Shown here one piece after another: positions 36,891 to 63,018 of a stretch of DNA of 64,000 nucleotides. The DNA lies in the NCBI GenBank assembly GCA_964613815.1, contig CAZTKG010000001.1, forward strand, positions 8,895 through 72,894, written 5' to 3'. The position numbers and the translations under genes were made by a program. Source of the DNA: an uncultured Gammaproteobacteria bacterium (lineage in GTDB: Bacteria; Patescibacteriota; Patescibacteriia; UBA9934). Position 1 is the stretch's first letter, and each line of letters opens with the position of its first letter. The notes below the pieces were generated by a model. It made no database searches. It had not been told where the DNA came from and was given only the letters and a program-made list of their open reading frames with translations.

Positions 36891-36897
36891 GGCTGTT

Positions 36898-39698: not shown

Positions 39699-39830
39699 GT
39701 TGAATCGCTTCGCTCGTTGAATCACTCGCCTGCGGCATCGTTCGTTTAAAGCGTTGATTCCGGAATCAACGAGCGCAGCGATTCAACGAGTTTCGGCGAT
39801 TAGTCGAACGATTCAACGATTTAAACGTTA
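39699..39830. repeat. about 120 bp palindromic intergenic repeat, copy A (TCGTTGAATCACTCGCC...CGTTGATTCCGGAATCAACG...GATTCAACGATTTAAACGTT)
   Basis: Three copies: A 39699..39830, B 59109..59255, C 60629..60747. Contains the 20 bp perfect palindrome CGTTGATTCCGGAATCAACG. Each copy abuts the 5' end of a - strand gene. Confidence 0.8.
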
Positions 39831-39857
39831 TTAGCAGTCTTTAGTGTAGAGTGCTAA
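39831..39857. promoter_or_regulatory. CIRCE element (HrcA operator) upstream of clpB
   Basis: TTAGCAGTC-N9-GAGTGCTAA versus consensus TTAGCACTC-N9-GAGTGCTAA (one mismatch). Confidence 0.65.
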
Positions 39858-39871
39858 TCTGAATTTGTCAA
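39843..39871 (-). promoter_or_regulatory. sigma70-like promoter for clpB overlapping CIRCE
   Basis: - strand TTGACA-17-TACACT. Confidence 0.4.
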
Positions 39872-39922
39872 TGCGTTTTTTGGTTGAAAATTGTGGGTAA
39901 AGTTGCTACTCTTGGTTCAGAT

Positions 39923-40351
39923 ATGACAACGAAATCACTTTCATTATTTTCGATTTTTGCAATTGTTATTGCGATTGTGGGGATTTTGCATTCCGCCGGA
40001 CTTGTATGGGACTTGTACGGGCTTTATGACTGGTATGACACGGTTTTGCATTTTGGTGGTGGGTTGACGGCTGGGGTGTTTGCGCTTGCTGTTTGGCGGC
40101 ATTTTGGGGTTGAGGTGAAGGGCGGACACTTGAAAATTATTCGGTCGCTCGTACATTTGACATGGGTTCTTGGTGTGGTTTCGATTATTAGTATTGTTTG
40201 GGAGCTGCATGAGTATGGTCTTGATCAAATTATGCTTGGGGTAGGTGGGCAATTGCGGCAGCTTTCGACGGCAGATACAATGGGAGACTTTGTTCTTGAT
40301 TTACTCGGAGGATTTGTGGCGTATGCGGTCTTCCGAAATGGACGGGTTTAA
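39923..40351 (+). CDS. hypothetical membrane protein
   Basis: MTTKSLSLFSIFAIVIAIVG..., four hydrophobic segments; start uncertain (the ORF begins at 39884). Confidence 0.45.
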   Translation: MTTKSLSLFSIFAIVIAIVGILHSAGLVWDLYGLYDWYDTVLHFGGGLTAGVFALAVWRHFGVEVKGGHLKIIRSLVHLTWVLGVVSIISIVWELHEYGLDQIMLGVGGQLRQLSTADTMGDFVLDLLGGFVAYAVFRNGRV

Positions 40352-41153
40352 GGTTTTTGGGGTGCGGGTCGACGCCGTTGACGCGGCGGTTTTTGATTCT
40401 TTGATGATGGAGTGGCTTCAGGGTGATCGGTTGAAGCGGATTGTGACGCCGAATGCGGAGATGGTTCTTGCTGCGCGAAATGATGTGGTATTTACGTCGG
40501 CGCTTGTTGGGGCGGATTTGGCGCTTCCTGATGCGGTGAGTTTGGAGTTTGCGGCGCGTGCGTTTGGTCATCAGAATTTTGCGCATCGGTATACGGGGGT
40601 GGATGCGGTGATTAGGCTTGCGGAGTTATGTAGAGATCAGAATAAGCGGATGATGTTGTTTGGTGGCGTTGATAATGTTGCTGCACTTGCGGCGGAGGAA
40701 TTGCGTGGGAGATATCAGCATCTTGATGTGCTTGGAGTGAATCCTGGAGATGTGCATGTGGATGGGGGAGGGAAGTGCACGGTGCATATGGAGGCGATTC
40801 GGCAGGTGCGAGAGTTTAAGCCGGATGTGATGGTTGTTGCGCTTGGGCATCGGAAGCAGGAGTTGTTTATGGAGGGGTTTCGGGCTTGGTTTCCGTCGAT
40901 TCGCATTGCGATTGGGGCTGGTGGGGCGCTTGATATGATTGCGGGCGTGATTCCGCGATCGCCTCGATGGATGCGGAAGCGTGGATTTGAATGGGTTTGG
41001 CGGGCCCTCCGGCAGCCGAGTCGGATTGGGAGGATTGTGCAGGCTAGCCTTGTTTTTCCGCTGTTTGTGGCGTACGATTGCGCTAAACAAGGACGATTTA
41101 TTCAAGCATGTCGCGACGTGATTCCGGCGGTTATTGAGCGGACGCGCGGCTAA
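40338..41153 (+). CDS. WecB/TagA/CpsF-family glycosyltransferase (GT26)
   Basis: FKVFGVRVDAVD...RIVTPNAEMVLAARND...GVDNVAALAAE...HRKQELFM is the GT26 layout. Confidence 0.7.
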   Translation: MDGFKVFGVRVDAVDAAVFDSLMMEWLQGDRLKRIVTPNAEMVLAARNDVVFTSALVGADLALPDAVSLEFAARAFGHQNFAHRYTGVDAVIRLAELCRDQNKRMMLFGGVDNVAALAAEELRGRYQHLDVLGVNPGDVHVDGGGKCTVHMEAIRQVREFKPDVMVVALGHRKQELFMEGFRAWFPSIRIAIGAGGALDMIAGVIPRSPRWMRKRGFEWVWRALRQPSRIGRIVQASLVFPLFVAYDCAKQGRFIQACRDVIPAVIERTRG

Positions 41154-41163
41154 CATCAACACT

Positions 41164-42615
41164 ATGGGACATCGAACACGAATTGCTCCGTCACCGACGG
41201 GGTATATGCATATTGGAACGCTGCGGACTGCACTTTTTGATTATTTTGTTTCACGGCAGTCTGGTGGAGCGTTTGTGCTTCGTGTTGAGGATACGGATCG
41301 GAATCGGATGGTTGAGGGGGCGACGGAATCGCTTTTGCGGACATTTAAGAAGATGGGGATTCAGGCAGATGAGGGGTTGTTTATTGATGAGGATGGAGCG
41401 GTTCAATCACGAGGAGAGTTTGGGCCGTATGTGCAGAGTGAGCGGTTAGGGATTTATGAGGATTTTATTCGGACGCTTCTTGAGCAGGATGATGCGTATT
41501 ACTGTTTTTGTTCGAAGGAGCGGCTCGATGAGGTTCGGGAGGCGCAGAAGATGACGAAGCAGACGACGAAGTATGATCGGGCGTGTTTGGGGTTGGATGC
41601 GGATGACATCAAAACGCGTTTGGATGCTGGGGAGAGTCATGTGGTGCGGATGCGGGTTCCTGAGGGGGAGACGGTGTTTGAGGATGTCGTCCGGGGGCGT
41701 GTGCGTGTTTCTAATCAGGAAGTGGATGATCAGGTTTTGATCAAGGCGGATGGGTTTCCGACGTATCATTTTGCGGTGGTCGTGGATGATCATTTGATGA
41801 AGATTTCTCACATTTTGCGAGGAGAAGAATGGATCAGCTCGACGCCAAAGCAAGTTATTTTGTATGGTATGTTTGGATGGGATGTGCCGAAGTTTGCGCA
41901 TACGCCGAATTTGTTGAATGCAGATAAGACGAAGTTGTCTAAGCGTCAGGGAGATGTTGCTGTTGAGGATTATTTGGAAAAGGGGTATTTGCCTGAAGCG
42001 CTGATTAATTTTGTTGGGACGCTTGGGTTTAATCCTCGTGGGGATCGGGAGATTTATACGCTTGAAGAGCTTGTGGAGATGTTTGATTTGTCGAAAGTGA
42101 AGCCGGCTGGGGCGGTGATGAATGTGGAGAAGCTTGATTGGATGAATAATCAGTATTTGAGCAAGTTGGAGATTGACGAAGTGAAACGTGTGGCTGAGCC
42201 GTTTGTGGGAGAGCTTTCTGATGAGCGGTTGCGCGCCGCGTTTGTGGAGGTGAAGCGGGTGGATCGGCTGGATCAGCTTGAAGAGCGGTTGGCGTCTTAT
42301 GGTGATGTCGGGGGGTATGATGGTGAGATTTTGGTTTGGAAAAAGTCTGATGCTGCTGCGGCTAAAGCGGCGCTTGAGCATGTGCGAGCTTTTATTGATT
42401 CGCTTGATGATGCGGTGTTTGAGGATGCCGAGAAGCTTGAAAGTGAGATTTTGCGACACATCGAAGAGAGAGGGGTAGGGAAAGGGGAGGTTTTGTGGCC
42501 CCTTCGCGTTTCACTTTCGGGATTGCAGAAATCGCCGAGCCCGTTTGAATTGTTGTGGGTGCATGGGAAGGATGGTTCAGTTGCGCGGATTGATGACGGA
42601 ATTGTAAAATTGTAA
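41164..42615 (+). CDS. gltX: glutamate--tRNA ligase
   Basis: RTRIAPSPTGYMHIGTLRTALFDYF (HIGH), KLSKRQG (KMSKS). Confidence 0.9.
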   Translation: MGHRTRIAPSPTGYMHIGTLRTALFDYFVSRQSGGAFVLRVEDTDRNRMVEGATESLLRTFKKMGIQADEGLFIDEDGAVQSRGEFGPYVQSERLGIYEDFIRTLLEQDDAYYCFCSKERLDEVREAQKMTKQTTKYDRACLGLDADDIKTRLDAGESHVVRMRVPEGETVFEDVVRGRVRVSNQEVDDQVLIKADGFPTYHFAVVVDDHLMKISHILRGEEWISSTPKQVILYGMFGWDVPKFAHTPNLLNADKTKLSKRQGDVAVEDYLEKGYLPEALINFVGTLGFNPRGDREIYTLEELVEMFDLSKVKPAGAVMNVEKLDWMNNQYLSKLEIDEVKRVAEPFVGELSDERLRAAFVEVKRVDRLDQLEERLASYGDVGGYDGEILVWKKSDAAAAKAALEHVRAFIDSLDDAVFEDAEKLESEILRHIEERGVGKGEVLWPLRVSLSGLQKSPSPFELLWVHGKDGSVARIDDGIVKL

Positions 42616-42632
42616 TCATGATATAATCGTCT

Positions 42633-44509: not shown

Positions 44510-44689
44510 TGTTTGGGCGCTAGAGTCTTTGGACGCGTTCGTTGGCGGGGATTGCAACGAGTGTGCCTCTGTTTTGTACGTTGACGGCTTTTTCCTTGCC
44601 GTGTTTTTGCCAGACAATCTCACTGTTCCCTGCCCTGACGAAAAACGTTCCAGACGTGATGTCTGAAAATTTTACGTTGTGGATGGGTG
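44510..44689 (-). CDS. hypothetical small protein (59 aa), unlisted ORF
   Basis: - strand AGAGG-6 nt-ATG. Translation MCEAPIHNVKFSDITSGTFFVRAGNSEIVWQKHGKEKAVNVQNRGTLVAIPANERVQRL. The stop is embedded in a hairpin AGCGCC-CAAACA-GGCGCT + CTTTATTTTG. Confidence 0.4.
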
Positions 44690-44758
44690 CTTCACACATG
44701 TAAGCCTCTAATGAACGAGATCACTATAACTTGATTGTGTAGGCATGCCAAATCCGAT

Positions 44759-46803: not shown

Positions 46804-46807
46804 AGTT

Positions 46808-50008: not shown

Positions 50009-50010
50009 AG

Positions 50011-50475
50011 CTATGTGATTGAAATAACTTTGTAGGTTGTGATTCCTGATGGTGTTTTGATTTCGACGTCGGTTCCAACTTCTTTTCCGAGGAAGGCTTT
50101 TCCAAATGGTGATTCATTGCTGATTTTGCCAGTCATCGGATCGGTTTCTGTGGCGCCAACAAGTTCGTAAGGACGTTCGTTTCCGTTTGCATCTGCGGCG
50201 ACAAATTTTGTGCCGAGATTGATCGTGGACTCCCCTTCTCTTGCTTCTACGATGACGGCGTTTTTGAGGAGGTCGTTGAGTTCGTGAATGCGCGCTTCAT
50301 TTTGTCCTTGCATTTCTTTTGCGGCATGATATTCAAAGTTTTCTGAAAGATCACCCTGTTCTTTGGCAACGCCAATTTTTTCGGAAATTTCTTTTCGGAG
50401 GGTTTTTGTTCGGTGGTTGTATTCTTCTTTAATCTTTTCGAGTCCTTCCGGAGATACGAAGTGTTGGTTGTTCAT
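50011..50475 (-). CDS. greA: transcription elongation factor GreA
   Basis: N-terminal coiled coil with acidic tip (QGDLSENFEYHAAKE) plus C-terminal FKBP-like domain. Confidence 0.9.
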   Translation of the reverse strand: MNNQHFVSPEGLEKIKEEYNHRTKTLRKEISEKIGVAKEQGDLSENFEYHAAKEMQGQNEARIHELNDLLKNAVIVEAREGESTINLGTKFVAADANGNERPYELVGATETDPMTGKISNESPFGKAFLGKEVGTDVEIKTPSGITTYKVISIT

Positions 50476-50536
50476 AATGCAATCATATCAGACGCTCAAT
50501 GAGCGTCTTTTCGTTAGTGATCGTAGCATATGAAGT

Positions 50537-52438
50537 CTATTGATACCAGTAGTCGAGAATGTCTTTTGTGATGGGTACGGCGAGGTAATCGTCCCCGCCT
50601 TCTTCTATCAAGACGGTGATAACGATTTCTGGATTTTCGTAAGGCGCGAAGCCAGTAAACCACGAATGAGGTGGTTTTGTGGACGACCATTGAGCTGTTC
50701 CTGTTTTCCCAGCAACTTCAACAGCGACACTTTGGAGCATCTGTGCAGATCCTTGAGTTATTGTGCGTCGCATGCCGGTGGCGACGATGTTCACGATTTC
50801 TGTTGAAATTACTCGTGAAGAGGATGTTTCAAGGGAGTTGTTTACATGTGGTGTTACTAGATGTCCGTCATTGGCAAACATCGCCGTCGCTCTTGCGATC
50901 TGTAAAGGTGTTGCAAGGAAGTCTCCTTGACCAATTGCGGCGTGATACGTGTCGCCGATGTACCACGGTTCCCCTTTTGCCTCAATTTTCCATTCTTTTG
51001 TTGGAAGGAACCCGTCTTGTTCACCTGCAATGTCTAAGCCTGTTTGTGAACCGAAGCCATAGCTGGCTGCATATTCCATCATTTTTTCGATTCCTAGGCC
51101 GTCGAAGTGTTCATTTCCGCCGCCGATGAGGTAGAAAAATGTATTTACTGAGTCGGCGATTGCGTGGTAAACGTTTGTATTTCCGTGTCCATCTGCTCGC
51201 CAATCAGGGAAATACCAGATCCCAATTTGTATTCCCCCTGTTGAGATAAAGGAGGTTTCCGGAGTGATGATGCCTTCGATTAGCGCAGAAGCGGCGTTCA
51301 TGGGTTTAATTGTGGATCCAGATGGGAATTCTCCTGAGAAGGCTCTTGCAAAGAGTGGGCGGTCCTCATCTTCAATAAGGGCTCTGTATGATGCTGTATC
51401 GATTCCTCCGGTGAACGCGTTTGCGTCGTACGCTGGCCAGGAAACGAGTGCATAAATTTCTCCATTTTTTGGGTTCATCGCGATGACGGAGGCTTTTGAT
51501 GCTGGGGTTCCTTCGAGTCGTGTTTTTAACACTTCTTCAATGTATTTCTGAAATGCGGCATCTACGGTGAGTGTAATGTTTTGTCCTTGAGTTGGTTCAG
51601 TTTTTGAAACAACTCTTCCGATGGATCCAAGGGCGTTTATTTCTAAGAGTTCAAGTCCGAATTGTCCTCGAAGACGTTGTTCGTAGGCTTGTTCGATCCC
51701 CATTTTTCCAATGGAGTCAAAGGGACGATATCCTTCTGATTTTTTTTCTTCATATTCGTCTTCGTTTAAGCCTCCTGAATAGCCGATGATGTGTGAAAGC
51801 GATGGAATTTCGTTTGTGATGTATCCTCGTTTTGATGAGAGTTCTGTGGTGATGCCTGGGAAAGACGTTGGGCTTGATTCGACAGTGAGCGCGAGTTCGT
51901 ATGGGACGTTTGCTGCAAGAAGGATTGATGTTTTAGGTTCCGTTGTGTCTGATTCTTCAAGAGCGATGTACAATTCGTTGATCGGAGTCTCTGAATTTTT
52001 TGCAATATGTGACAATATTTGATGTTGATGTTCACGGTCTTTTGTCATTGATGCAGGTGTTGCAAGGAGGTTAAATACTGCTTCGTTCCAAGCAAGCTCA
52101 GTTCCTGTGCGATCATAGATAATGCCACGTTGAGACGGTAGAATATGATTCCAAAGTCTGTTTTGTTCTGCTTGCGTTCGGTATTCTTGACCTTTTACAA
52201 TTTGTAAATATCCGGATTTTCCAAGGAGTATTGCAATGATGAAGCCGGTGATAATAAATGACAGTTTAAAGCGTTTTGCATGAATTGCTGGTCCGATGAA
52301 GGATGTGTTTGTGTCATCGCTTGGATTTTTGGCATCGGAAAAAATGTCGGCGAAGATTTCTTCGTTTTGTATCTCTCGATTTTTTGATAGATCGATTGAT
52401 GGGGGAAGTGGGAATAAACTGTTTTGTTTTTTTACCAT
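50537..52438 (-). CDS. mrdA: penicillin-binding protein 2 (peptidoglycan D,D-transpeptidase)
   Basis: SxxK FPSGSTIKP, SxN, KTGT in a transpeptidase domain; start at MVKKQN directly after the mreD stop. Confidence 0.85.
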   Translation of the reverse strand: MVKKQNSLFPLPPSIDLSKNREIQNEEIFADIFSDAKNPSDDTNTSFIGPAIHAKRFKLSFIITGFIIAILLGKSGYLQIVKGQEYRTQAEQNRLWNHILPSQRGIIYDRTGTELAWNEAVFNLLATPASMTKDREHQHQILSHIAKNSETPINELYIALEESDTTEPKTSILLAANVPYELALTVESSPTSFPGITTELSSKRGYITNEIPSLSHIIGYSGGLNEDEYEEKKSEGYRPFDSIGKMGIEQAYEQRLRGQFGLELLEINALGSIGRVVSKTEPTQGQNITLTVDAAFQKYIEEVLKTRLEGTPASKASVIAMNPKNGEIYALVSWPAYDANAFTGGIDTASYRALIEDEDRPLFARAFSGEFPSGSTIKPMNAASALIEGIITPETSFISTGGIQIGIWYFPDWRADGHGNTNVYHAIADSVNTFFYLIGGGNEHFDGLGIEKMMEYAASYGFGSQTGLDIAGEQDGFLPTKEWKIEAKGEPWYIGDTYHAAIGQGDFLATPLQIARATAMFANDGHLVTPHVNNSLETSSSRVISTEIVNIVATGMRRTITQGSAQMLQSVAVEVAGKTGTAQWSSTKPPHSWFTGFAPYENPEIVITVLIEEGGDDYLAVPITKDILDYWYQ

Positions 52439-52440
52439 GA

Positions 52441-52962
52441 TTATGTTGCTGTTCTTGGCAAGAACTGGTTTTTTGCATCTTGCCATTTTCTGGCAGTAAT
52501 TTGGGCGATGTAAAGCCCTGTAATGAGCCATGCAAGTATGACAATTTGTTCAGAAAAAAATGGCTTAAAGAACGCATCGTGGATTGTGTCTCGATTGAAA
52601 AATTGAAATAGGATCGTGGGCAGGGTTTGCGCCAATGATCCTACGACGAACATGGAAATGCCAAGTCCTTGAAGCCCCCATAGCGATCGTTGTGCGAAGA
52701 TGCGTAAGCAAAGTGGAATCGCAGCGCAAAGCATCAGAGTGTAGATTCCGCTTGGTATTGTAGGGAACCCGGTGAGCTTGATGAAGATGACGCATGTTAA
52801 TGTCCAGATGATGCCAAGCGGGATTGTTGTTCTATGAAGAAGTGTTGTGCCAATGATGAGCGGGAGGGGGATGAGGTTAAGAGGAGTTGGAAGGCTGCCA
52901 ATAAGACTTGTTTGTATGAGTGCGATAATGAGTGCACTTAGGGCGACGATAACTTCTTTCAT
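52441..52962 (-). CDS. mreD: rod shape-determining protein MreD
   Basis: Five-TM small membrane protein in the mreBCD slot. Confidence 0.7.
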   Translation of the reverse strand: MKEVIVALSALIIALIQTSLIGSLPTPLNLIPLPLIIGTTLLHRTTIPLGIIWTLTCVIFIKLTGFPTIPSGIYTLMLCAAIPLCLRIFAQRSLWGLQGLGISMFVVGSLAQTLPTILFQFFNRDTIHDAFFKPFFSEQIVILAWLITGLYIAQITARKWQDAKNQFLPRTAT

Positions 52963-52965
52963 ACA

Positions 52966-53781
52966 TCAGATTGAGGGAGATGTTTCAATCAGGACCCTTG
53001 AGATTGTATTTACGTCAATGAGAGGTTCTATGTTAGCTGTTTGAAATAGAGCCGTTTCGTTTTTTATGATTTCTCGAATAATGCCGATTATCAAGCCTGC
53101 CGGGATGTCGTCTTGAAGGCCAGAAGTAAGAATGAGCGTTCCTTCAGTGATGATTTTTTCTTGAGGGATGAACCCTAGTTCAAGATAGAATCCCTCTTTC
53201 CCTTCAACGATGCCGATTGTTGCTTCGTCGGATTGAAGCATGGCGGTGATTTTGCTTTCCGGACTAGACAAAAGTTGCGCAGTGGATGTGTTTTGTGTTG
53301 TTTTGCTAATGGTGCCAATGATATGGCCGTTTTCTGCGATAACAGGCATGCCGATGTTGATTCCGGCTCGTTCTCCTTGATTGATGAGGATCTTTGCGTC
53401 TTCTTTGATGTTTTTCGCGAGGACGTGCGCGAGGACGAGATTTGCATCGACAGATTGTTTGTAGTTTAGTAATTCTTCAAGCTCTGCGATTCTTGATTCC
53501 AAAATGGTCACATACGCTTTGTCACTTGCGAGAGCATTTCGGTCGGATTCACATATCTGCAATTGTCCCGCAAGACTTTCTGGCGATGCCGTATTTACCT
53601 CATAGATTGTGTAAAATGTTGTTCCAATTGTTGAAAATGTTGATTGAATGAAGTTAATCGATGCTGATATAGGGCCCCAGTTTCTGAAAAGAAGAATGAG
53701 AATAAGTGAAATGGTAAAAGTGATCAGCTTTTTAGCGATTTGTTTATTTTGTTTTGTAATGCGTTGGCGGGATACTGGCAT
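52966..53781 (-). CDS. mreC: rod shape-determining protein MreC
   Basis: N-terminal TM helix, coiled coil, then two beta domains. Confidence 0.75.
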   Translation of the reverse strand: MPVSRQRITKQNKQIAKKLITFTISLILILLFRNWGPISASINFIQSTFSTIGTTFYTIYEVNTASPESLAGQLQICESDRNALASDKAYVTILESRIAELEELLNYKQSVDANLVLAHVLAKNIKEDAKILINQGERAGINIGMPVIAENGHIIGTISKTTQNTSTAQLLSSPESKITAMLQSDEATIGIVEGKEGFYLELGFIPQEKIITEGTLILTSGLQDDIPAGLIIGIIREIIKNETALFQTANIEPLIDVNTISRVLIETSPSI

Positions 53782-53782
53782 G

Positions 53783-54835
53783 TTATGCGAAGCCGTCTTC
53801 TGATGTCGAAGGAAGCGTGACGTCTTTGAGGAGCTCTTCGTTGCTGAGCAAAATTCCGTTCCCTCTCACGACGGCTGTGAGTGGGTCGTTTGCGATTGTG
53901 ACGGGAATGTCTGTAGCTTTTGACATGAGCGTGTCGAGTCCCTTTAGAAGCGCGCCTCCGCCTGCGAGCACGATGCCGTGTTCGTAAATGTCTGCGACCA
54001 ATTCCGGGGGAGTCATTTCAATTGTAACTTTGACGTTTTCGATGATTGCTTGGACGGATTTTTGGAGTGCTTCTCTGATTTCATTGTCGCTTACGATGAC
54101 TTGTTTTGGTAAACCTGTGATGAGGTCTCTCCCCCGCATTTCGATTTGTAGCGGTTCTGCGGGTTCCACCGCTGTTCCGATGGACCACTTTACGATTTCG
54201 GCAACGCGTTCGCCGATGAGAAGGTTGAAGACGTCTCGTGCATATTGGACAATATTTTTTGTCATTTCCTCTCCGGCGATGGACATGGTTTTTGAAGTGA
54301 CAACGCCGCTTAGAGCGATGACGGCAATCTCGGTTGTTCCTCCGCCGATGTCAACGATCATGCTGCCCGTTGACTCTGTGACTGGAAGAGATGCTCCAAT
54401 GGCTGCTGAAATGGGTTCTTCGATAAGAAAAACTTGTCTTGCGCCGGCGCTTATTGCCGCGTCTTCAACTGCTTTTTGTTCCACTTCCGTGATTTCTAGA
54501 GGAACTCCGATGACGATTCTGGGTCTTGGTATGATTGTGAATGATTCTTCATGAATTTTGTCGATAAAGAATTTGAGCATGCGTTCTGCGATTTCGAAAT
54601 CTGAGATAACGCCTTTTGTTAGTGGTCGCGAAGTTTTGATGTGTGGCGGTGTTTTGCCAAGCATGTCTTTAGCTGAGTGGCCGACGGCGATGATTTGGTT
54701 TGTTCTGACGTTTAAAGAGACGATTGAGGGTTCGTTCATGACGATCCCTTTCTTTTTGATGTAGATAAGCGTGTTTGCGGTGCCAAGATCTACAGCGACA
54801 TCTTCTGAGAATTTTCCTAGGAATTTATTCAGCAT
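53783..54835 (-). CDS. mreB: rod shape-determining protein MreB
   Basis: Actin-fold ATPase motifs DLGTANTLIY, DIGGGTTEIAVI. Confidence 0.9.
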   Translation of the reverse strand: MLNKFLGKFSEDVAVDLGTANTLIYIKKKGIVMNEPSIVSLNVRTNQIIAVGHSAKDMLGKTPPHIKTSRPLTKGVISDFEIAERMLKFFIDKIHEESFTIIPRPRIVIGVPLEITEVEQKAVEDAAISAGARQVFLIEEPISAAIGASLPVTESTGSMIVDIGGGTTEIAVIALSGVVTSKTMSIAGEEMTKNIVQYARDVFNLLIGERVAEIVKWSIGTAVEPAEPLQIEMRGRDLITGLPKQVIVSDNEIREALQKSVQAIIENVKVTIEMTPPELVADIYEHGIVLAGGGALLKGLDTLMSKATDIPVTIANDPLTAVVRGNGILLSNEELLKDVTLPSTSEDGFA

Positions 54836-54897
54836 ACGGGGTCATGAGATGTTATCTTAACAAAAAAAATTCTGTATGCAAGCAGAATTTTGTTGTT

Positions 54898-55284
54898 TTA
54901 TTGATGCTTGCTATGTGTTGCGGCGAGGAAAATGTATTCAATGGTGCTTATTACAGCGATGCAAACGAGAAGAAGCCACCATGAAAGTAGGTTTGATTTG
55001 AGGAGTATGAGCGTGGTTACGATGAGGATGGTGAGAATGATGGCTTGTCTTAGTGATGTTTTTACGATTTCGTCGATTTTGCGATTTGGATATTTGTTGA
55101 TACGGATGAGGGTACCGCAACTCGTGAAGAGTCCGGCGGATGCGGTGAAAAGCGTGATATAAAAGCTGCTTATCGTAAAGCTGTTTGCGTTTATTGGATT
55201 GATGCCAAAAAGTACAATAATCCAGGCGAGCGCGGCCAAGAGTGTTCCCGAGAATAAGGCGATGATGTATTGCTTGACGGTCAT
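54898..55284 (-). CDS. hypothetical small membrane protein (4 TM)
   Basis: Hydrophobicity only. Confidence 0.4.
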   Translation of the reverse strand: MTVKQYIIALFSGTLLAALAWIIVLFGINPINANSFTISSFYITLFTASAGLFTSCGTLIRINKYPNRKIDEIVKTSLRQAIILTILIVTTLILLKSNLLSWWLLLVCIAVISTIEYIFLAATHSKHQ

Positions 55285-55622
55285 GAGTGCATTATATCAC
55301 GCTGGATGCGAAGGTCTGCTTGGGAATTAGGGTCGATAAAGGTAAAAATTTCGATGATATTTGATTGTGGAAATTCACGTTTGAGACCATCGAGGAGAGG
55401 CTGCTTGAATCTATTCATTAGTGATTTTGCTTGTGTGTTGAGACAGGCGATGCGGATTTGATCGTGCAGGAACGACCGGATTTCGATGTCTTGCTTGGCA
55501 CGTTCTGGGAGCATGTTAAATAGAATCATTTCTGCTTTTTTGACGATCATTGCAGCGGTGACAGATCTGCCGATGTTGTGGCGCGCAAGTGTTTGATTGA
55601 TGAGACTGGAAAAGGTGTCCAT
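55281..55622 (-). CDS. hypothetical protein, possibly DUF721/DciA-like
   Basis: Start at MDTFSSLIN right after the helicase stop; weak family resemblance only. Confidence 0.4.
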   Translation of the reverse strand: MDTFSSLINQTLARHNIGRSVTAAMIVKKAEMILFNMLPERAKQDIEIRSFLHDQIRIACLNTQAKSLMNRFKQPLLDGLKREFPQSNIIEIFTFIDPNSQADLRIQRDIMHS

Positions 55623-55623
55623 A

Positions 55624-58509
55624 TTACGTTTGAGCGAATTCGCAGATGTCTTTGAAGTCACAGTAGTTGCATCCGAAGCCTGGTGTTGGCTTGAAGTCAC
55701 TTGATTTGATGGCTTCTACGGATGATTTGATTTCTTCAATGAGACGTTCTTTGAGTTTGTCTTTTGGTTCAAAGGAAACGGTGCTGTTGTTTTCGAGATA
55801 GTGATATTCGAGTTCTGTGACGTGAAGTGGAGGGTCAAAGCATTTTTCGGCTGCGATAGCGTAGAGAATCAACTGTTTTTTGTCGTCCCAATTCAGTTTA
55901 CCATCTTTTTTTGGATTACCGGTTTTGTAGTCGACGATTTTGTAGGCGTTGTTAATTTTGTCTATTCTGTCGATGCGTCCCTTGATGGTGATGTCGCCGA
56001 TCTTGATCGTGAAAGGTTTTTCGATGAAGGCGACGGTTGGCGGGGTTGCTGTGATCTGGGTGTGGTATTCAATGAGCGATTCCCTTCCTTTTTTGCGATA
56101 CTCATCTCGAATAGCGTCTGAGGGGTACCACTCATTAATCCAGTTTTGATCATACAGAGCGAGGAGATTTTTGAGAGATGGGATGTCTGACTGGGGAGCG
56201 CTTTCGAATAGCGATGTTTGTGTATCCCCTGCCCCGGATTCGAAAAAGTGTTGCAAGGTGTTGTGCATGGTTTTTCCGAAACTCATTTGGTGTTTGCCGA
56301 AGATGGGAATGCGGAGGATATGAGCGAATTTGTATTGGAGTGGGCATTTGGCGAAGGCGGCGAGTTGGGTGAAGCTGACGCGTTTGAGTTCATGCCCTTT
56401 TTGGCTAGACGGGAGTGGAGTTTCGATGGTCGTTTGGGTGGTGATGTCTTTTTGAGATTCGCCTTCGTCTGCTTGGATGTTGAGTTCTTGTAAGAATCTT
56501 GATGGTTTTCGTGTGCGTTTGCCGCCGTAGTCTTTTGCAGCGAGGAGATAGAGGCCTTCTTTGGCGCGAGTGATGGCGACGTAAAAAAGGCGTCGTTCTT
56601 CTTCGACGTGGTCGTGGTCTATGTTTGATGTGATGAGTTCTTGCGGGAGCGGGATCGCGTCTGGACGCGCACGAGATGGGAAACGTTGTTCGATGAGGTT
56701 GATGATGAATACGTAAGGAAATTCGAGGCCTTTTGATCCATGGATGGTCATGATGTTGATGGCGTCGTTATGATCGGTTTCTGATGTTGAGAGGGCGCCT
56801 GTCTCCCCTGCTTGGCGTTCATGTTCGAATTCTTCGAGGAAATGTGTGAGGGTTTTGTCCCCGGTGTTTGATTCGAAGGATTTTAGGCGGGTGAGAAATT
56901 GTTGCAAATAATCGTACTGTTCGGCCTGTTGGATTTCCGGGAGGGTGCCTACGTGTCCGAGGATACCGGTTTGTTTGAGGACTTCTAGATACAGTTCGGT
57001 GATTGGGGCTCGGCGGGATTTTGTATGGAGCTGGTCGATTGTTGTTGTGATGGATTGGAGGCGTTTTGCGGTACCCGTGTCTTCTGGTGTTTTAGCGGTC
57101 ATTGCTTTGTAGAGTGAGGAGCCGTCTTGTTTGGCGGTGAGCGCGATGTTTGCGATGTCTTTGTGCGCAAGGCCGAGTTCTGGGTGCGCAAGGATGCGGT
57201 AGATGGAGATGCTGTCATGGTGGAAGGCGATGGCGCGGAAGTAGGCGAGAATATCGAGGATGATTGGCTGGGTGTAGAGGCCGGCTCTTGCTTGGAATGT
57301 GTATGGAGCACCGATTTGGTCTAGTTTGTTGACGAGTTCTGTGGCGTGGGCATTTGCTCGAACGAGGATAGCGAAGTCTCCCCAGTTTGTTTCTGAAGCT
57401 TCTTTTTTGGTGAGGATTTCTTGAATGGTGAAATCGATTTCGTCTTCGAGGGTTGGGAATATTAGATGTCGAACAAAGCCCTCCCCTTCTTTGTGGGGTT
57501 TGAGTTCTTTGTTGAGGCCTTCGCGGGCTTCGAGACGGTTTGGATTGTTGTTTTGGATGAGGCTATAGGCGGCGTTTAGGATGCTGGCTTTTGATCTGTA
57601 GTTTGTGGTGAGGACAACGGTGGTGGTTTGGGGGAAGTCGGATTTAAAAGAGAGGATATTTGAGAGGGATGCGCCGCGGAATTTGTAAATGGATTGGTCG
57701 TCATCTCCGACGATGGTGATGTTTTGTTCTTTGTTTATCAAGAGCTTTACGAGTTCGTATTGTGAGCTGTTGGTGTCTTGGAATTCGTCGACGAGGATGT
57801 GTTTGAATTGGGTTTGATAGTGCTCGCGGATGTTTGGGCGTGTTTTGAGGAGTTCGAGGGTGTAAGCGATCAGGTCGGCGAAATCAAGCGCGTTGTTTTC
57901 GAGCATGATTTGTTGATAGGTGTGGTAGGCGCTTGCGAGTTCTTGATATTTGGCCGGTTCCGAGAGTGCCTTGTCTGCTTCGGCAATGTCGTCATTTAGC
58001 CGGAGAGACTCGGCAAAGGTGTGGTAGTCGTTTGGGGTGACGCCTTCGTCTTTTGCTCTTGAGATGTGATTGATGATGGCTTTGATGAATCGGGTTGGAT
58101 TGGATTTTGGTTTGTAGTAGTCCAGGGTGAATTTATCGAGATTGCGGTTGATGGTGAGGAGGGTTTGGACTTCGTCGAGGAGCGTAAAGTCGTTTGCGAG
58201 GCCGATTTCTACGGCGTGGGCACGGAGGACGCGTTCGCAAAAGGCATGAAATGTGGAGATCCATGTTTCTAGGTAGCCGATTGGGAGGAGTTCGTCGATA
58301 CGTTCTTCCATTTCTGTGGCGGCTTTTTCGGTGAATGTGAGTGCAAGGATTTCTTCTGGTTTTGCGCCTTGTTCGATGAGCCAGGCGACGCGTTTGGTGA
58401 TGACGGTGGTCTTCCCTGTTCCAGCACCGGCGATAATCATGAGTGGACCGGTTTTGTGTGTGACGGCGGTGTGTTGTTCTGGGTTTAGGGCGGAGAGGTC
58501 GATTGGCAT
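55624..58509 (-). CDS. UvrD/PcrA-family SF1 helicase fused to a C-terminal PD-(D/E)xK (Cas4/AddB-like) nuclease domain with a Cys cluster
   Basis: Walker A AGAGTGKT, helicase motifs across about 650 aa. C-terminal DYKTG (nuclease motif III) with Cys in FAKCPLQYKF and GCNYCDFKDIC (4-Cys Fe-S-like). Confidence 0.85.
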   Translation of the reverse strand: MPIDLSALNPEQHTAVTHKTGPLMIIAGAGTGKTTVITKRVAWLIEQGAKPEEILALTFTEKAATEMEERIDELLPIGYLETWISTFHAFCERVLRAHAVEIGLANDFTLLDEVQTLLTINRNLDKFTLDYYKPKSNPTRFIKAIINHISRAKDEGVTPNDYHTFAESLRLNDDIAEADKALSEPAKYQELASAYHTYQQIMLENNALDFADLIAYTLELLKTRPNIREHYQTQFKHILVDEFQDTNSSQYELVKLLINKEQNITIVGDDDQSIYKFRGASLSNILSFKSDFPQTTTVVLTTNYRSKASILNAAYSLIQNNNPNRLEAREGLNKELKPHKEGEGFVRHLIFPTLEDEIDFTIQEILTKKEASETNWGDFAILVRANAHATELVNKLDQIGAPYTFQARAGLYTQPIILDILAYFRAIAFHHDSISIYRILAHPELGLAHKDIANIALTAKQDGSSLYKAMTAKTPEDTGTAKRLQSITTTIDQLHTKSRRAPITELYLEVLKQTGILGHVGTLPEIQQAEQYDYLQQFLTRLKSFESNTGDKTLTHFLEEFEHERQAGETGALSTSETDHNDAINIMTIHGSKGLEFPYVFIINLIEQRFPSRARPDAIPLPQELITSNIDHDHVEEERRLFYVAITRAKEGLYLLAAKDYGGKRTRKPSRFLQELNIQADEGESQKDITTQTTIETPLPSSQKGHELKRVSFTQLAAFAKCPLQYKFAHILRIPIFGKHQMSFGKTMHNTLQHFFESGAGDTQTSLFESAPQSDIPSLKNLLALYDQNWINEWYPSDAIRDEYRKKGRESLIEYHTQITATPPTVAFIEKPFTIKIGDITIKGRIDRIDKINNAYKIVDYKTGNPKKDGKLNWDDKKQLILYAIAAEKCFDPPLHVTELEYHYLENNSTVSFEPKDKLKERLIEEIKSSVEAIKSSDFKPTPGFGCNYCDFKDICEFAQT

Positions 58510-58512
58510 AGG

Positions 58513-59091
58513 TTAATGTTGTTTGCCCCAGGCGACGATGAGGGCATGGTATTCGTTGAAGAGGGCTGCGTCGTTATCAAGATTTGAAGTGAAGAGATGC
58601 TTGTATTCGTCGTAGGTTGACAATGTTAGCCTTTTTGATGCGCAGAGGCGTTTGGTGTAGGTGTCGATGACGAATTCTGGGCGATTTCCGGCGTAGAGAA
58701 GAATAGAATCGGCCGTTTCTGGGCCGATCCCCCATTGTGCAAGGACATGGTTTCTTGATGCGGATTCTGCGAAGTGTTTGGCCGATTGCCAGTTGTTCGT
58801 GATTTCTGCGGCGATGAGACGGAGTTTTTTGGCTTTTTGGTTGTAGTATCCGCTTGGCTTGATGGCGGCTTTGAGATCGTCTTCTGGGAGGGTTAGGAGT
58901 GCTTGTGGTGATAACGCCTTGCGTGTTTTTAGGTTTGCGATGGCTTTTTCGACATTTTTCCAAGTGGTGTTTTGGGTGAGGATGGTGCCGATGATGATTT
59001 CGAAGGCGGGATCCTGTTTTGATGTGGTTGGCCACCAGTGCTGCGGGCCGAATTCATCAAGTAGCTCTTGGTAGGTCTGGTTGATGTCCAT
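58513..59091 (-). CDS. HhH-GPD superfamily base-excision DNA glycosylase (EndoIII/MagIII-like)
   Basis: WWPTTSKQDPAFEIIIGTILTQNTTWKNVEKAIANL is the HhH-GPD N-terminal helix pattern. The ORF extension to 59121 is translation of repeat copy B. Confidence 0.65.
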   Translation of the reverse strand: MDINQTYQELLDEFGPQHWWPTTSKQDPAFEIIIGTILTQNTTWKNVEKAIANLKTRKALSPQALLTLPEDDLKAAIKPSGYYNQKAKKLRLIAAEITNNWQSAKHFAESASRNHVLAQWGIGPETADSILLYAGNRPEFVIDTYTKRLCASKRLTLSTYDEYKHLFTSNLDNDAALFNEYHALIVAWGKQH

Positions 59092-59108
59092 GTTGTGGGG
59101 GCGTTTAA

Positions 59109-59255
59109 GTCGTTGAATCACTCCCGGCGGGGCCGGGTTGTTCGTTTAAGGCGTTGATTTCGGAATGAACGAGCGGAGTCACGTCGTTCGCGAACGACGT
59201 GGCGGAGCGATTAAACGAGTTAGGGCGTTAGCCCACGATTCAACGACTTAAACGT
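59109..59255. repeat. about 120 bp palindromic intergenic repeat, copy B (with a 24 nt hairpin insertion)
   Basis: Aligns end-to-end with copies A and C. Confidence 0.8.
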
Positions 59256-59257
59256 TT

Positions 59258-59665
59258 TCAGCTCGCGGGCTGCATGGAGACGTTTCCTTCTTCGTCGATG
59301 TCGGCGATGAGGGTGATGATGTTGAGGTTTGGGTAGCGGACAGCGAGGGTTTGTTTGGCAGACATTAGCTCGCTTTGATGGTGTTTGTATTCTTCTTCTT
59401 TTGATGGAAATGCCGCTCTTCCGCCGTAGCCTCCGCAGTCTGTGTGGTTGATGAGAATGAGGTCTTGGATGTCGTGTAATTGTTTTGAGAGGGCGATTTG
59501 GTTTTCGACGGAGCTGTCTGCTGGGTCGTTGACGCCTTTTGTGGCACCAGCAATGGAGATGATATCGGCGTCGCCACAGATGTCGTGGGATGTGAGGTAG
59601 TCGTGGATCGCGTGTTCGAGTCGGAAGTCCATGCATCGGACGAGAGCTGCTTTGCATGAGGCCAT
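59258..59665 (-). CDS. short beta-carbonic-anhydrase-like protein
   Basis: CMDFR ... HTDCGG zinc-ligand pattern (CxDxR...HxxCG). Confidence 0.5.
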   Translation of the reverse strand: MASCKAALVRCMDFRLEHAIHDYLTSHDICGDADIISIAGATKGVNDPADSSVENQIALSKQLHDIQDLILINHTDCGGYGGRAAFPSKEEEYKHHQSELMSAKQTLAVRYPNLNIITLIADIDEEGNVSMQPAS

Positions 59666-59744
59666 ATGATTTTGTGAGTGTTTATTGGAGGTAGTTTAGC
59701 ATCTTTAATAGAAAAACACCCACGTTTTGACGTGGATGGTGTGA

Positions 59745-59996
59745 CTAGTTGATGGTGAAGATCTCGTTGATCTTCGGGATCAGGACTCGTCTGTCTGTGA
59801 TCCCGCTGTCGCGGAGCTCGGTGAGGCCCGCGATCGTGTCGACAGCATCGGTGCGAGCACGTCGGATGGCGTCGTTGAAGATAGCTGGATAGTTCGACGG
59901 CGAGTCAGCCCACAGGGCGGATTCGAGCATTGCGACGATGCGTCGTCTGGGAGAAAATGGTGCCGGAGTTGTTCTGGTTTTTGCGAGCGCGGCCAT
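59745..59996 (-). CDS. hypothetical small protein (83 aa), GC-rich, with its own promoter/operator-like palindrome and terminator
   Basis: - strand TTGACA-17-TATCAT with the -10 inside the loop of an 11 bp inverted repeat (AAGAACGACAT...ATGTCGTTCTT). AGAGGA 5 nt before the ATG. A hairpin + T-run lies downstream at about 59712..59745. Confidence 0.45.
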   Translation of the reverse strand: MAALAKTRTTPAPFSPRRRIVAMLESALWADSPSNYPAIFNDAIRRARTDAVDTIAGLTELRDSGITDRRVLIPKINEIFTIN

Positions 59997-60083
59997 GAGA
60001 TCCTCTTGATGAAAACGAAAAGAACGACATGCGGCGGATGATAGCGCAAAATGTCGTTCTTGTCAATGCTGGGTTGTCATCAT

Positions 60084-60190
60084 TCCCATCTCGAGCATCG
60101 TTGAGAGATCTGATGGGGGCAGGGCTGCAAGATCTCTCCACAAGGTCCCCACTTTGCAGAATGCTTCGTTAGGGGTAGGCGAGATGGGAG
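60084..60190. repeat. RPE-like palindromic element, copy 6 (long form)
   Basis: TTCCCATCTCGAGC..GAGAGATCT-(18 nt)-AGATCTCTCC..AAGGTCCCCACTTTGCAGAATGCTTCGTTAGGGG..GAGATGGGAG. Confidence 0.8.
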
Positions 60191-60204
60191 AGCGGTTTTT
60201 TTGA

Positions 60205-60618
60205 TTATTGTTTTCCTACATCGCGGTATTTCCCTTTTCGCGCGATACGTAGACGGGCCATTTCTCTTTCTAGCATCATCATGGCATCTGCGTGGTCGGT
60301 TCCGGATTCTTTTGCTTTTTTGATGCGTTCTTCTGCGAGTTGTTTAGCTTTTTCGATTTCTTCGAGGATGAGCTCGTCGGATCGTTCTGCGGTGTCGGCA
60401 AGGATCATGACTTGGTTGCCGGTTTTTACCTCGAGAAGTCCGGTTGAGATGGCGAAGACTTGGTTATCGATTCGCACCTCCCCTGCCCTCAAAAGTGAGG
60501 CAAGCGGGACGTGGCCTGGGAGGATGGTGACTTCGCCGGTTTCTGTCATGACAGAAATTGAAGATGACTCGCCTTCGAAAAGCGTGCGTTCTGGGGTGAC
60601 GATTTTGATTGTTAGCAT
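60205..60618 (-). CDS. atpC: F0F1 ATP synthase subunit epsilon
   Basis: MLTIKIVTPERTLFEGE... beta-sandwich plus C-terminal helices. Confidence 0.85.
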   Translation of the reverse strand: MLTIKIVTPERTLFEGESSSISVMTETGEVTILPGHVPLASLLRAGEVRIDNQVFAISTGLLEVKTGNQVMILADTAERSDELILEEIEKAKQLAEERIKKAKESGTDHADAMMMLEREMARLRIARKGKYRDVGKQ

Positions 60619-60628
60619 AGGCGGAGTT

Positions 60629-60745
60629 TAAATCGTTGAATCACTCGCCGACGGCATCGTTCGTTTAAGGCGTTGATTCCGGAATCAACGAGCGGAGCGA
60701 TTAAACGAGTTTGGGCGATTAGTCCACGATTCAACGATTTAAACG

Positions 60746-60747
<2 letters not shown>
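60629..60747. repeat. about 120 bp palindromic intergenic repeat, copy C (fills the atpD-atpC intercistronic gap)
   Basis: AATCGTTGAATCACTCGCCGACGGCATCGTTCGTTTAAGGCGTTGATTCCGGAATCAACGAGCGGAGCGATTAAACGAGTTTGGGCGATTAGTCCACGATTCAACGATTTAAACGTT. Confidence 0.8.
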
Positions 60748-62122
<1,375 letters not shown>

Positions 62123-63013: not shown

Positions 63014-63018
63014 GGGGA

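What the first reader, a model, noticed from the sequence alone, without database searches (positions are those of the whole stretch)
39699..60747. About 120 bp palindromic repeat present three times, always butted against the 5' end of a - strand gene
Copy A 39699..39830 is upstream of clpB, between its CIRCE/promoter and start codon. Copy B 59109..59255 fills the gap between the beta-CA-like gene and the HhH-GPD gene. Copy C 60629..60747 fills the atpD-atpC intercistronic gap.

The copies are more than 90% identical. They contain a 20 bp perfect palindrome CGTTGATTCCGGAATCAACG and long-range complementary ends (TCGTTGAATC...GATTCAACGA; CGTTTAA...TTAAACG). Copy B has an extra 24 nt hairpin insertion.

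Read on the - strand, each copy begins ATGATTCAACG. This fools ORF callers into adding MIQR(A/L)KR to clpB and the glycosylase.

The element is transcribed as part of mRNAs. It could be an mRNA-stability or processing element, a protein operator, or another MITE family.
Basis: seen in the sequence. Interest (0 to 1): 0.55.

Follow-up and report, generated by a model that had tools for sequence, protein, structure and literature searches.

The report
Small palindromic mobile-type DNA repeat
A hairpin-forming DNA repeat of about 120 bp has been copied into at least four very tight gaps between genes of an uncultured Patescibacteria (CPR) bacterium; it behaves like an ordinary small selfish repeat (MITE/REP-like) that is carried along inside mRNAs, and nothing shows it is a dedicated regulator.

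Summary
The three copies are real. They lie at 39707-39826, 59103-59253 and 60626-60744, all in the same orientation. No other copy is in the window.

I found a fourth copy 3.4 kb left of the window. It has the same orientation but sits between the 3' ends of two convergent genes, trx and era. So "always at a gene's 5' end" does not hold for the family.

Each copy has:
- 17-bp terminal inverted repeats, GTTTAARTCGTTGAATC;
- a central 20-bp palindrome;
- two small side hairpins.

Copies are 83-90% identical, not all above 90%. No target-site duplication, no transposase within about 90 kb, and no Rfam, plasmid, phage or E. coli match were found.

Syntenic relatives lack the element. Their trx-era gap is 23 nt, against 164 nt in the host.

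Base pairing is 93%, but covariation is not above shuffled controls. Stems vary as much as loops, so there is no sign of selection on structure.

In mRNA sense the element folds as a self-contained domain and leaves the AUG free.

The host genome carries at least three other nested-palindrome families and an extreme GC skew.

Verdict: a new family of a known kind, a MITE/REPIN-like repeat. It is co-transcribed, and any effect on the mRNA is unproven.

The parts
39707..39826 (+). Copy A (120 bp) in the clpB 5' UTR. Its left terminal 7 nt are degenerate (GCTTCGC instead of GTTTAAR). An extra TTGAATC lies just outside at 39700-39706.
   Evidence: in the fold the outer stem uses the flanking GTTGAATCGCTTCG
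59103..59253 (+). Copy B (151 bp) between the Pro_CA_2 gene and the HhH-GPD gene. It has a perfect 17-bp outer stem. Both side arms are replaced by different G+C-rich hairpins.
59179..59207 (+). 29-nt extra segment in copy B. It holds the 22-nt perfect palindrome CACGTCGTTCGCGAACGACGTG (59180-59201) and is bounded by direct repeats GCGGAG (59173-59178 and 59202-59207).
   Evidence: the palindrome is unique in the window
60626..60744 (+). Copy C (119 bp), filling the atpD-atpC spacer. It is the copy closest to the consensus, with a perfect 17-bp outer stem and the exact central 20-bp palindrome (60671-60690).
39831..39871 (-). clpB promoter (TTGACA-17-TACACT, 39871->39843) overlapping a CIRCE-like inverted repeat TTAGCAGTC-N9-GAGTGCTAA (39831-39857). 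Copy A starts 4 nt downstream of it.
   Evidence: sequence
37053..39689 (-). clpB (878 aa from the ATG at 39687-39689). The in-frame GTG at 39723-39725 inside copy A would add 12 spurious codons.
   Evidence: Clp_N/AAA Pfam hits; called at 878 or 860 aa
58513..59091 (-). HhH-GPD glycosylase gene (192 aa). Its ATG is 11 nt from the left end of copy B.
59258..59632 (-). Pro_CA_2 (carbonic-anhydrase-like) gene. Its TGA stop codon is 4 nt from the right end of copy B.
60205..60618 (-). atpC. Its ATG is 7 nt from the left end of copy C.
60746..62119 (-). atpD. Its TAA stop codon (60746-60748) is 1 nt from the right end of copy C. The position of the C-terminus is conserved in relatives.

Best explanation
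The element is a non-autonomous, nested-palindromic repeat of the MITE / REP-doublet kind, 118-151 bp long.

**Anatomy**
- Terminal inverted repeats of 17 bp, GTTTAARTCGTTGAATC.
- A second inverted pair, TCGTTTAA/TTAAACGA.
- A central 20-bp palindrome.
- Two short side hairpins that vary between copies.

**Proposed history and behaviour**
1. It has spread, or once spread, by transposition within the genome of one uncultured Patescibacteria (CPR, Uhrbacteria-like) lineage. This step is inferred.
2. The genome is very compact, so the surviving insertions are those in tiny spacers just after a stop codon. In an operon such a spot is also just before the next start codon. That explains the apparent attachment to gene 5' ends.
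3. The copies are therefore transcribed as part of the clpB 5' UTR and of two intercistronic regions. This step is inferred from promoter and operon context.
4. In the RNA the element folds on itself into a closed multi-branch hairpin that leaves the downstream AUG unpaired. This is predicted, and it would explain why the insertions are tolerated.
5. Any effect on mRNA half-life or processing would be a by-product or a later co-option. It is not shown.
For: **Repeat family**
- Three copies in the window and a fourth 3.4 kb outside it. All are highly significant by nhmmer, and there are none elsewhere in about 90 kb of host DNA.
- Pairwise identity of 83-90% is what drifting copies would show.

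**Terminal inverted repeats and nested palindromes**
-.
- The longest frames through the element are open for only about 40-50 codons. Their peptides match nothing among 5.8 billion proteins.

**Insertion character**
- Syntenic relatives lack the family at nhmmer E <= 10.
- Their convergent era-trx gap is 23 nt, against 164 nt in the host. The host gap is entirely element material: one full copy plus two partial left ends.
- Era, AtpD, Trx and the CA-like protein end at positions conserved in relatives. In era the last codon and the stop codon (GTT TAA) come from the element terminus.

**Multi-copy behaviour**
- Three independent contigs end inside copy B (L005, L006, L040).

**Genome context**
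- At least three other nested-palindrome families lie in the same 64 kb.

**No sign of a selected structure or operator**
- Covariation is not above shuffled controls.
- Variable columns are 24% in stems and 22% in loops.
- All 7 occurrences of GATTCAACG lie inside copies.
- There is no Rfam family.

**Tolerated in mRNA**
- Folds in mRNA sense have z-scores of -2.8 to -5.8, and the AUG is unpaired in all three.
- The genome uses no Shine-Dalgarno sequences. Spacers are normally TAA plus 1-5 nt plus ATG.
Against: - No target-site duplication can be recognised at any of the four copies.
- No transposase or related autonomous element appears in the gene tables covering about 90 kb.
- No empty site or presence/absence polymorphism was seen. 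All strain-level contigs are 99.98-100% identical and carry the copies.
- No copy was found in any other organism or collection. Mobility is therefore inferred, not shown.
- Only 4 copies could be reached, and the rest of the 579-kb scaffold could not be scanned.
- All four copies share one orientation, and three share the same relation to a downstream gene. A purely random MITE would give the first by chance with p of about 0.125.
Confidence: 0.65

Rival explanations
1. A cis-acting RNA element, either selected as such or co-opted from the repeat. Once transcribed, the long hairpin would act in one of three ways:
- as a barrier to exonucleases, as with REP in malE-malF, raising atpD over atpC;
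- as a protective stem-loop near the 5' end of clpB mRNA;
- as an RNase III cleavage site, as with Correia elements in Neisseria.
For: - Three copies lie inside transcription units.
- The folds are stable and autonomous, with z-scores from -2.8 to -5.8.
- In two relatives the atpD-atpC spacer is also unusually long, 81 and 211 nt. The 81-nt spacer folds into an unrelated long hairpin with z = -2.9. This hints that a hairpin at that position may be useful.
- The beta:epsilon stoichiometry of 3:1 would fit (established knowledge of F1 ATPase).
- An RNase J-type gene is present nearby.
Against: - Covariation is not above shuffled controls, and stems vary as often as loops.
- The fourth copy lies between convergent 3' ends.
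- The three host genes have no functional link to each other.
- The L046 spacer fold is not significant, z = -1.8.
- No transcript data were available.
Confidence: 0.2
2. A repeat mobilised as single-stranded DNA, of the REPIN/RAYT or IS200/IS605-derived PATE type. In this model a Y1 transposase recognises the folded top strand on the lagging-strand template. That would give one fixed orientation per replichore and no target-site duplication.
For: - No target-site duplication is present.
- All four copies have the same orientation on a strand with an extreme, uniform GC skew, so they lie in one replichore.
- A similar short flank (AATAAC, AATAAC, GAAAAC) lies 5' of the element on the - strand in three of four copies.
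- The size and the doublet-of-palindromes architecture resemble REPINs (own knowledge).
Against: - The element has long, perfect terminal inverted repeats. These are typical of DDE-type MITEs and absent from IS200/IS605 ends (own knowledge).
- No Y1 transposase or RAYT family appears in the gene tables of about 90 kb.
- Four of four copies in one orientation is expected by chance 1 time in 8.
- The excess of G.T over A.C mismatches on the + strand (7 against 1) is explained by the genome's mutational skew.
Confidence: 0.12
3. A cluster of protein-binding sites, either an operator or a nucleoid-protein site. The GATTCAACG / CGTTGAATC motif recurs 4-6 times per element in alternating orientation and would recruit a dimeric DNA-binding protein next to promoters or start sites.
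For: The 9-mer is strongly over-represented, with 7 matches against 0.7 expected. It is arranged as inverted pairs.
Against: - Every occurrence lies inside an element copy. There are no solitary sites at any promoter in 64 kb.
- Only copy A is near a promoter. Copies B and C are intercistronic, and D lies between gene ends.
- The motif repetition follows trivially from the nested palindromes.
Confidence: 0.03

Closest known systems
Bacterial MITEs in general; Correia elements (CREE/NEMIS) of Neisseria are the best-studied example
   Same: - About 100-150 bp, non-coding, with terminal inverted repeats.
- Dispersed copies in intergenic regions close to genes.
- Co-transcribed with neighbouring genes and able to fold into a long hairpin. 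In Neisseria such hairpins are cut by RNase III (own knowledge).
   Different: - No sequence similarity.
- No TA or any other target-site duplication is recognisable.
- No outward promoter or IHF-site evidence.
- The host is a CPR bacterium.
- Only 4 copies could be counted.
REP doublets / REPINs and BIMEs, mobilised by RAYT (Y1) transposases
   Same: - Size of about 100-120 bp.
- Two inverted halves, each carrying its own small hairpin.
- Intergenic location, often between co-transcribed genes.
- No target-site duplication.
- REPs are known to stabilise upstream mRNA (own knowledge).
   Different: - No conserved GTAG-type head.
- No RAYT gene in the 90 kb examined.
- No similarity to anything in 5,426 E. 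coli genomes.
- The long perfect terminal repeats look more like a DDE-type MITE.
ERIC/IRU elements of enterobacteria
   Same: An imperfect palindrome of about 127 bp, found in transcribed intergenic regions of operons. Copies vary in length through internal insertions, as copy B does (own knowledge).
   Different: No sequence similarity, a different phylum, and a much lower known copy number.
Rickettsia palindromic elements (RPE)
   Same: Palindromic repeats of about 100-150 bp in a small, compact genome, which can overlap the ends of ORFs (own knowledge). Here the terminus supplies the last codon and the stop codon of era.
   Different: RPEs insert in frame inside genes and are translated. 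Here the copies lie outside ORFs apart from 6 nt of era.

Membership tests
MITE (miniature inverted-repeat transposable element) | Small size (<300 bp) and no coding capacity | tested here: met
   118-151 bp. The longest frames through the element are open for only about 40-50 codons, and their peptides match nothing in 5.8 billion proteins.
MITE (miniature inverted-repeat transposable element) | Terminal inverted repeats | tested here: met
   GTTTAARTCGTTGAATC / GATTCAACGAYTTAAAC pairs at 17/17 positions in B and C, 14/17 plus 2 G.T in D, and 13/17 in A.
MITE (miniature inverted-repeat transposable element) | Target-site duplication flanking each copy | tested here: not met
   No direct repeat of 2 nt or more flanks any of the four copies. 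The palindromic TTTAAA at both ends cannot be told apart from the inverted repeat.
MITE (miniature inverted-repeat transposable element) | Multiple dispersed copies in one genome | tested here: met
   4 copies in about 90 kb of host DNA. Three contigs break inside copy B. A genome-wide count was not possible.
MITE (miniature inverted-repeat transposable element) | An autonomous IS with the same ends, or empty sites / insertion polymorphism | tested here: inconclusive
   - No transposase in the gene tables.
- All strain contigs carry the copies.
- Syntenic relatives lack the element and have a 23-nt gap at the site of D, but they are too distant for a base-level empty site.
REP / REPIN (RAYT-associated) | Inverted doublet of short palindromic REP units, with a cognate RAYT (Y1 transposase) gene in the genome | tested here: inconclusive
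   The doublet-like architecture is present. No RAYT lies in the 90 kb examined. The rest of the genome could not be reached.
IS200/IS605-derived PATE | Subterminal hairpins without terminal inverted repeats, and insertion 3' of a fixed 4-5-nt target | tested here: not met
   Long terminal inverted repeats are present. The 5' flank is similar in only 3 of 4 copies: AATAAC, AATAAC, GAAAAC, and AGAATA in D.
ERIC / BIME / other E. coli repeat families | Sequence similarity to the family consensus | tested here: not met
   blastn with word size 11 against 5,426 complete E. coli genomes gave no match.
Any curated RNA family (Rfam 15) | A match at the gathering score | tested here: not met
   At the gathering threshold only a tRNA-Ala is found in the window. 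In E-value mode the best hit on copy C is a plant miRNA model at 17.7 bits against a gathering score of 95, which is chance.
Structured cis-regulatory RNA (generic) | Base pairs kept by compensatory change, and stems more conserved than loops | tested here: not met
   - 93% of cells are paired, but only 3 pairs change on both sides. 118 of 500 shuffles reach that number.
- Variable columns: 20 of 82 paired against 8 of 36 unpaired, p = 1.0.
- With only 4 sequences the power is low.
Rho-independent terminator | G+C-rich hairpin followed by a U tract | tested here: not met
   The scan flags no whole-element site. The only flagged site is copy B's left-arm hairpin (59123-59137, + strand, tail TTGTTCGTTT), which lies inside the element. 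On the - strand the element is followed by C-rich sequence.

The most novel reading that the evidence does not exclude
The family, and perhaps the three other nested-palindrome families beside it, may not be a classical cut-and-paste MITE. Two readings remain open.
1. It is mobilised strand-specifically as folded single-stranded DNA (REPIN/RAYT-like, or by an unknown enzyme). That would tie its single orientation to the extreme leading/lagging-strand asymmetry of this CPR genome.
2. It has been co-opted as intercistronic mRNA 'punctuation'. This would set the relative expression of neighbouring cistrons (atpD against atpC, for example) in an organism that uses no Shine-Dalgarno sequences and normally leaves only 1-5 nt between genes.
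Probability: 0.12. Interest if true: 0.55.

Novelty: new member of a known kind. Interest (0 to 1): 0.3.

Why it matters
- CPR/Patescibacteria genomes are small and streamlined, and I found no paper describing MITE- or REP-like repeats in them. A genome that carries at least four palindromic repeat families within 64 kb shows that streamlining does not exclude selfish repeats.
- In practice these repeats break short-read assemblies. Three contigs end inside copy B.
- They also offer false in-frame GTG starts and supply stop codons, as in era. Both matter for annotating MAGs.
- If the copies affect mRNA decay or processing, they would be a simple handle on operon-internal regulation in an organism without Shine-Dalgarno sequences. 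That is not shown here.

Tried and rejected
1. **Copy census in public DNA collections.**
   - The central 20-mer against 185,579 species genomes gave 3 chance hits.
   - The right-end 20-mer against JGI metagenome contigs gave 15 chance hits. That collection does not even return the host contig.
   - An 18-mer against viral contigs gave 18 chance hits.
   - The host genome is not in the scannable collections.
2. **Finding copies through mis-called ORFs.** A concatenated six-frame translation of the element against 5.8 billion proteins gave nothing.
3. **Walking along the host scaffold.**
   - The left side was extended by about 19.5 kb and the right side by 6.6 kb.
   - A concatenated Dus+RsmI query meant to extend both sides was flooded by Dus homologues. 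The RsmI id was lost, so there was no further extension to the right.
4. **G.U-wobble asymmetry as a pointer to the functional RNA strand.** The + strand folds better in all four copies, with G.T 7 against A.C 1. I rejected this as evidence because the + strand of the whole window is extremely G+T-rich. Mutational skew explains it.
5. **The G-rich left flank (C-rich upstream of the start codons) as part of the element or as an anti-SD feature.** Rejected. The genome uses no SD, and pyrimidine-rich upstream regions are general here.
6. **TTAA or TAA as a target-site duplication.** Rejected. The bases outside them (GT...AC) are also conserved and complementary, so they belong to the inverted repeat.
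7. **Similarity to plasmids, phages or E. coli repeats.** None found.
8. **Organism name from cluster members.** No names are held. The taxonomy rests on the labels of the nearest homologues.

Full report
**What is there**

Read on the + strand they are:
- A, 39707-39826;
- B, 59103-59253;
- C, 60626-60744.

All three have the same orientation. An nhmmer profile built from them finds them at E = 1e-34 to 2e-41 and finds nothing else in the 64-kb window. The central 20-mer CGTTGATTCCGGAATCAACG is exact in A and C and has two mismatches in B. Shuffled sequence gives no match.

**Anatomy**

The element is a nest of inverted repeats:
- an outer pair, GTTTAARTCGTTGAATC / GATTCAACGAYTTAAAC, which pairs at 17/17 positions in B and C;
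- an inner pair, TCGTTTAA / TTAAACGA;
- the central palindrome;
- a short hairpin in each of the two spacers between the outer and inner pairs.

Copy B carries an extra 29 nt. This is a perfect 22-nt palindrome, unique in the window, bounded by a 6-bp direct repeat GCGGAG.

Identities are 90% (A/C), 88.5% (B/C) and 83-88% for the rest. "More than 90%" is therefore too generous.

On the - strand the in-frame start inside the element is GTG, not ATG. Public gene calls did not use it.

**Host**

The window is 100% identical, or nearly so, to contigs from several independent assemblies:
- ENA ERZ23498905 scaffold_2, 579 kb;
- JGI 3300007512 and 3300007765;
- Logan SRR8062322 and SRR9166044.

The nearest AtpC and DusB homologues are at most 64% and 74% identical. 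Where they carry a label, it is Candidatus Uhrbacteria or Patescibacteria. The host is therefore an uncultured CPR bacterium without close sequenced relatives.

It uses no Shine-Dalgarno sequences. Its intercistronic spacers are typically TAA plus 1-5 nt plus ATG.

**Context of the copies**

- **Copy A** lies 4 nt downstream of a CIRCE-like repeat (39831-39857). That repeat overlaps a good promoter, TTGACA-17-TACACT. A ends about 18 nt before the clpB ATG, so it makes up most of the clpB 5' UTR. This is inferred from the promoter position.
- **Copy B** begins 4 nt after the TGA of the Pro_CA_2 gene and ends 11 nt before the ATG of the HhH-GPD gene.
- **Copy C** begins 1 nt after the TAA of atpD and ends 7 nt before the ATG of atpC.

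The copies do abut gene starts. In a genome this compact, however, any insertion into an intercistronic spacer must do so.

**A fourth copy changes the picture**

I extended the sequence to the left of the window. Copy D lies 3.35-3.47 kb before window position 1 (L042 6084-6201), again in + orientation.

D lies between the 3' ends of convergent trx (+) and era (-). Two partial left ends (L042 6035-6053 and 6054-6083) precede it, so the whole 164-nt gap is element material.

The last codon and stop codon of era, GTT TAA, are the first six bases of the element terminus. Even so, Era ends at the same position as in relatives. In a syntenic relative (L058) the era-trx gap is 23 nt.

This is the best evidence that the element is an insertion. 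It also shows that the family is not tied to gene 5' ends.

What the four sites share is a stop-codon-like context next to the element. On the - strand, the sequence just 5' of the element reads:

| Copy | Sequence immediately 5' of the element (- strand) |
|---|---|
| A | AATAAC |
| B | TGAAAAC |
| C | AATAAC |
| D | AGAATA |

**Is it mobile?**

For:
- terminal inverted repeats and no coding capacity;
- dispersed, diverged copies;
- three independent contigs that stop inside copy B, the usual sign of a multi-copy repeat;
- absence from all syntenic relatives examined, at nhmmer E <= 10;
- at least three further families of nested palindromes in the same 64 kb.

Against, or missing:
- no target-site duplication;
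- no transposase family in any gene table over about 90 kb;
- no empty site among the near-identical strain contigs;
- no copy in any other collection I could scan.

The host genome is not in the scannable DNA collections, so a genome-wide census was impossible.

**Is the structure selected?**

On a 41-pair structure, 93% of cells are paired. Only three pairs show changes on both sides, and 118 of 500 column shuffles do as well.

Variable columns are equally frequent in stems (20 of 82) and in unpaired regions (8 of 36). With four sequences the power is low, but there is no positive evidence for a selected RNA or DNA fold beyond the inherited palindromy.

The + strand folds better than the - strand in every copy, and G.T mismatches outnumber A.C by 7 to 1. 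I do not read this as pointing to a functional + strand. The whole window has an extreme compositional skew, with GC skew of +0.15 to +0.46 and T > A in every 4-kb bin whatever the gene orientation. That skew alone would turn G-C pairs into G.T on that strand.

**What it probably does in the mRNA**

In mRNA sense the element plus flanks folds into a closed, self-contained domain. The values are dG -45 to -71 kcal/mol and z-scores of -2.8 to -5.8. The start codon and its surroundings are unpaired in all three cases. This fits a tolerated passenger.

A stabilising or processing role remains possible. Examples would be a REP-like 3' barrier protecting atpD mRNA, a 5' hairpin on clpB mRNA, or an RNase III target as for Correia elements. 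One observation hints at it: two relatives also have long atpD-atpC spacers (81 and 211 nt), and the 81-nt one forms an unrelated hairpin with z = -2.9. Nothing here tests that role.

An operator function is unlikely. All seven GATTCAACG 9-mers in the window lie inside copies, and only copy A is near a promoter.

No Rfam family matches. The element does not look like an intrinsic terminator.

**Comparison with known kinds**

It works like a bacterial MITE or REP doublet. Correia, ERIC, REPIN/BIME and RPE elements are the closest analogues in size, palindromy, intergenic and co-transcribed location, and tolerance of internal insertions.

It is not a sequence member of any of them. It fails the target-site-duplication criterion of classical MITEs. 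Its long terminal repeats fail the architecture of IS200/IS605-derived elements. Whether a RAYT or a DDE transposase exists elsewhere in the genome could not be tested.

I found no paper describing such repeats in CPR bacteria. That is absence from the searchable library, not proof of novelty.

**Verdict**

This is a real repeat and a new family of a known kind. Its "another MITE family" option is the best supported. Interest is modest at 0.3.

The most novel reading not excluded is strand-specific ssDNA mobilisation, or co-option as operon punctuation in an SD-less CPR genome. I give it about 12%.

Noticed in passing
window 1-64000 (every 4-kb bin): Extreme strand asymmetry. GC skew (G-C)/(G+C) is +0.15 to +0.46 and AT skew about -0.2 to -0.33 (one 4-kb bin is +0.04), across + strand and - strand gene blocks alike. 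This is far above what I know as usual bacterial values (my own knowledge, not tested). The A-poor + strand is full of long spurious ORFs.
   Followed up: partly
window 15926-16032, 20065-20164, 21098-21174, 28027-28075, 36883-36962, 60083-60190: A second, unrelated family of nested palindromes of variable length (50-125 bp): TTCCCATCTCGACC ... GGAGAGATCT/AGATCTCTCC ... GGTCGAGATGGGAA. One copy lies just downstream of atpC.
   Followed up: partly
window 24831-24878 and 34852-34899; also L042 5082-5143: A third family: a near-perfect palindrome of 42-48 bp, CTTGATACAAAAGTGGTCCGTACGGACCACTTTTGTATCAAG.
   Followed up: no
window 6340-6449 and 6795-6906: A fourth nested palindrome, present twice 450 bp apart at 77% identity: CCATCCTGAGGAGG ... 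GGAAGGATC/GATCCTTCC ... CCTCCTCAGGATGG. It lies in a stretch where the public gene calls list only small ORFs without Pfam hits.
   Followed up: no
L004 gene starts (window 50205-64000 and 6.6 kb beyond): No Shine-Dalgarno-like sequence precedes any of 22 called genes. Neighbouring genes are usually separated by TAA plus 1-5 nt plus ATG.
   Followed up: partly
L042 1-7100 (left of the window): The ENA gene calls for this contig are all on the + strand and mostly spurious. The real - strand genes DusB (L042 414-1463) and Era (L042 6196-7053) were missed there but are called in the JGI contig L057.
   Followed up: partly
L042 6035-6083: Two truncated left ends of the element (19 and 30 nt, each starting GTTTAAGGCG) lie in tandem in front of the full copy D. 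They may be remnants of earlier insertions at the same spot or abortive events.
   Followed up: no
L046 9967-9999, 12128-12162, 15197-15266: In a relative (AtpC 64% identical), a motif of about 30 nt (CTACTGTATACTGCCTACTGCATACT-like) recurs immediately upstream of the start codons of atpC, the UvrD/AddB-type helicase gene and the next gene. It may be a promoter or leader motif of that lineage.
   Followed up: no
L049 9920-10000 and L046 9790-10000: Relatives also have unusually long atpD-atpC spacers (81 and 211 nt) with unrelated sequence. The 81-nt spacer forms a long imperfect hairpin directly after the atpD stop codon, z = -2.9.
   Followed up: partly
window about 23921 (L056 position 14460): A contig from another sample (SCRA20-1 scaffold_112) is 99.99% identical up to this point and then carries different genes (a shorter ABC_tran gene, then SLT). 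This is a strain-level rearrangement boundary.
   Followed up: no
window 20116-21849 (+): A 577-aa ORF without any Pfam hit is called as a gene in public assemblies. Copies of the second palindrome family overlap its start and lie inside it. It may be a spurious ORF on the A-poor strand.
   Followed up: no
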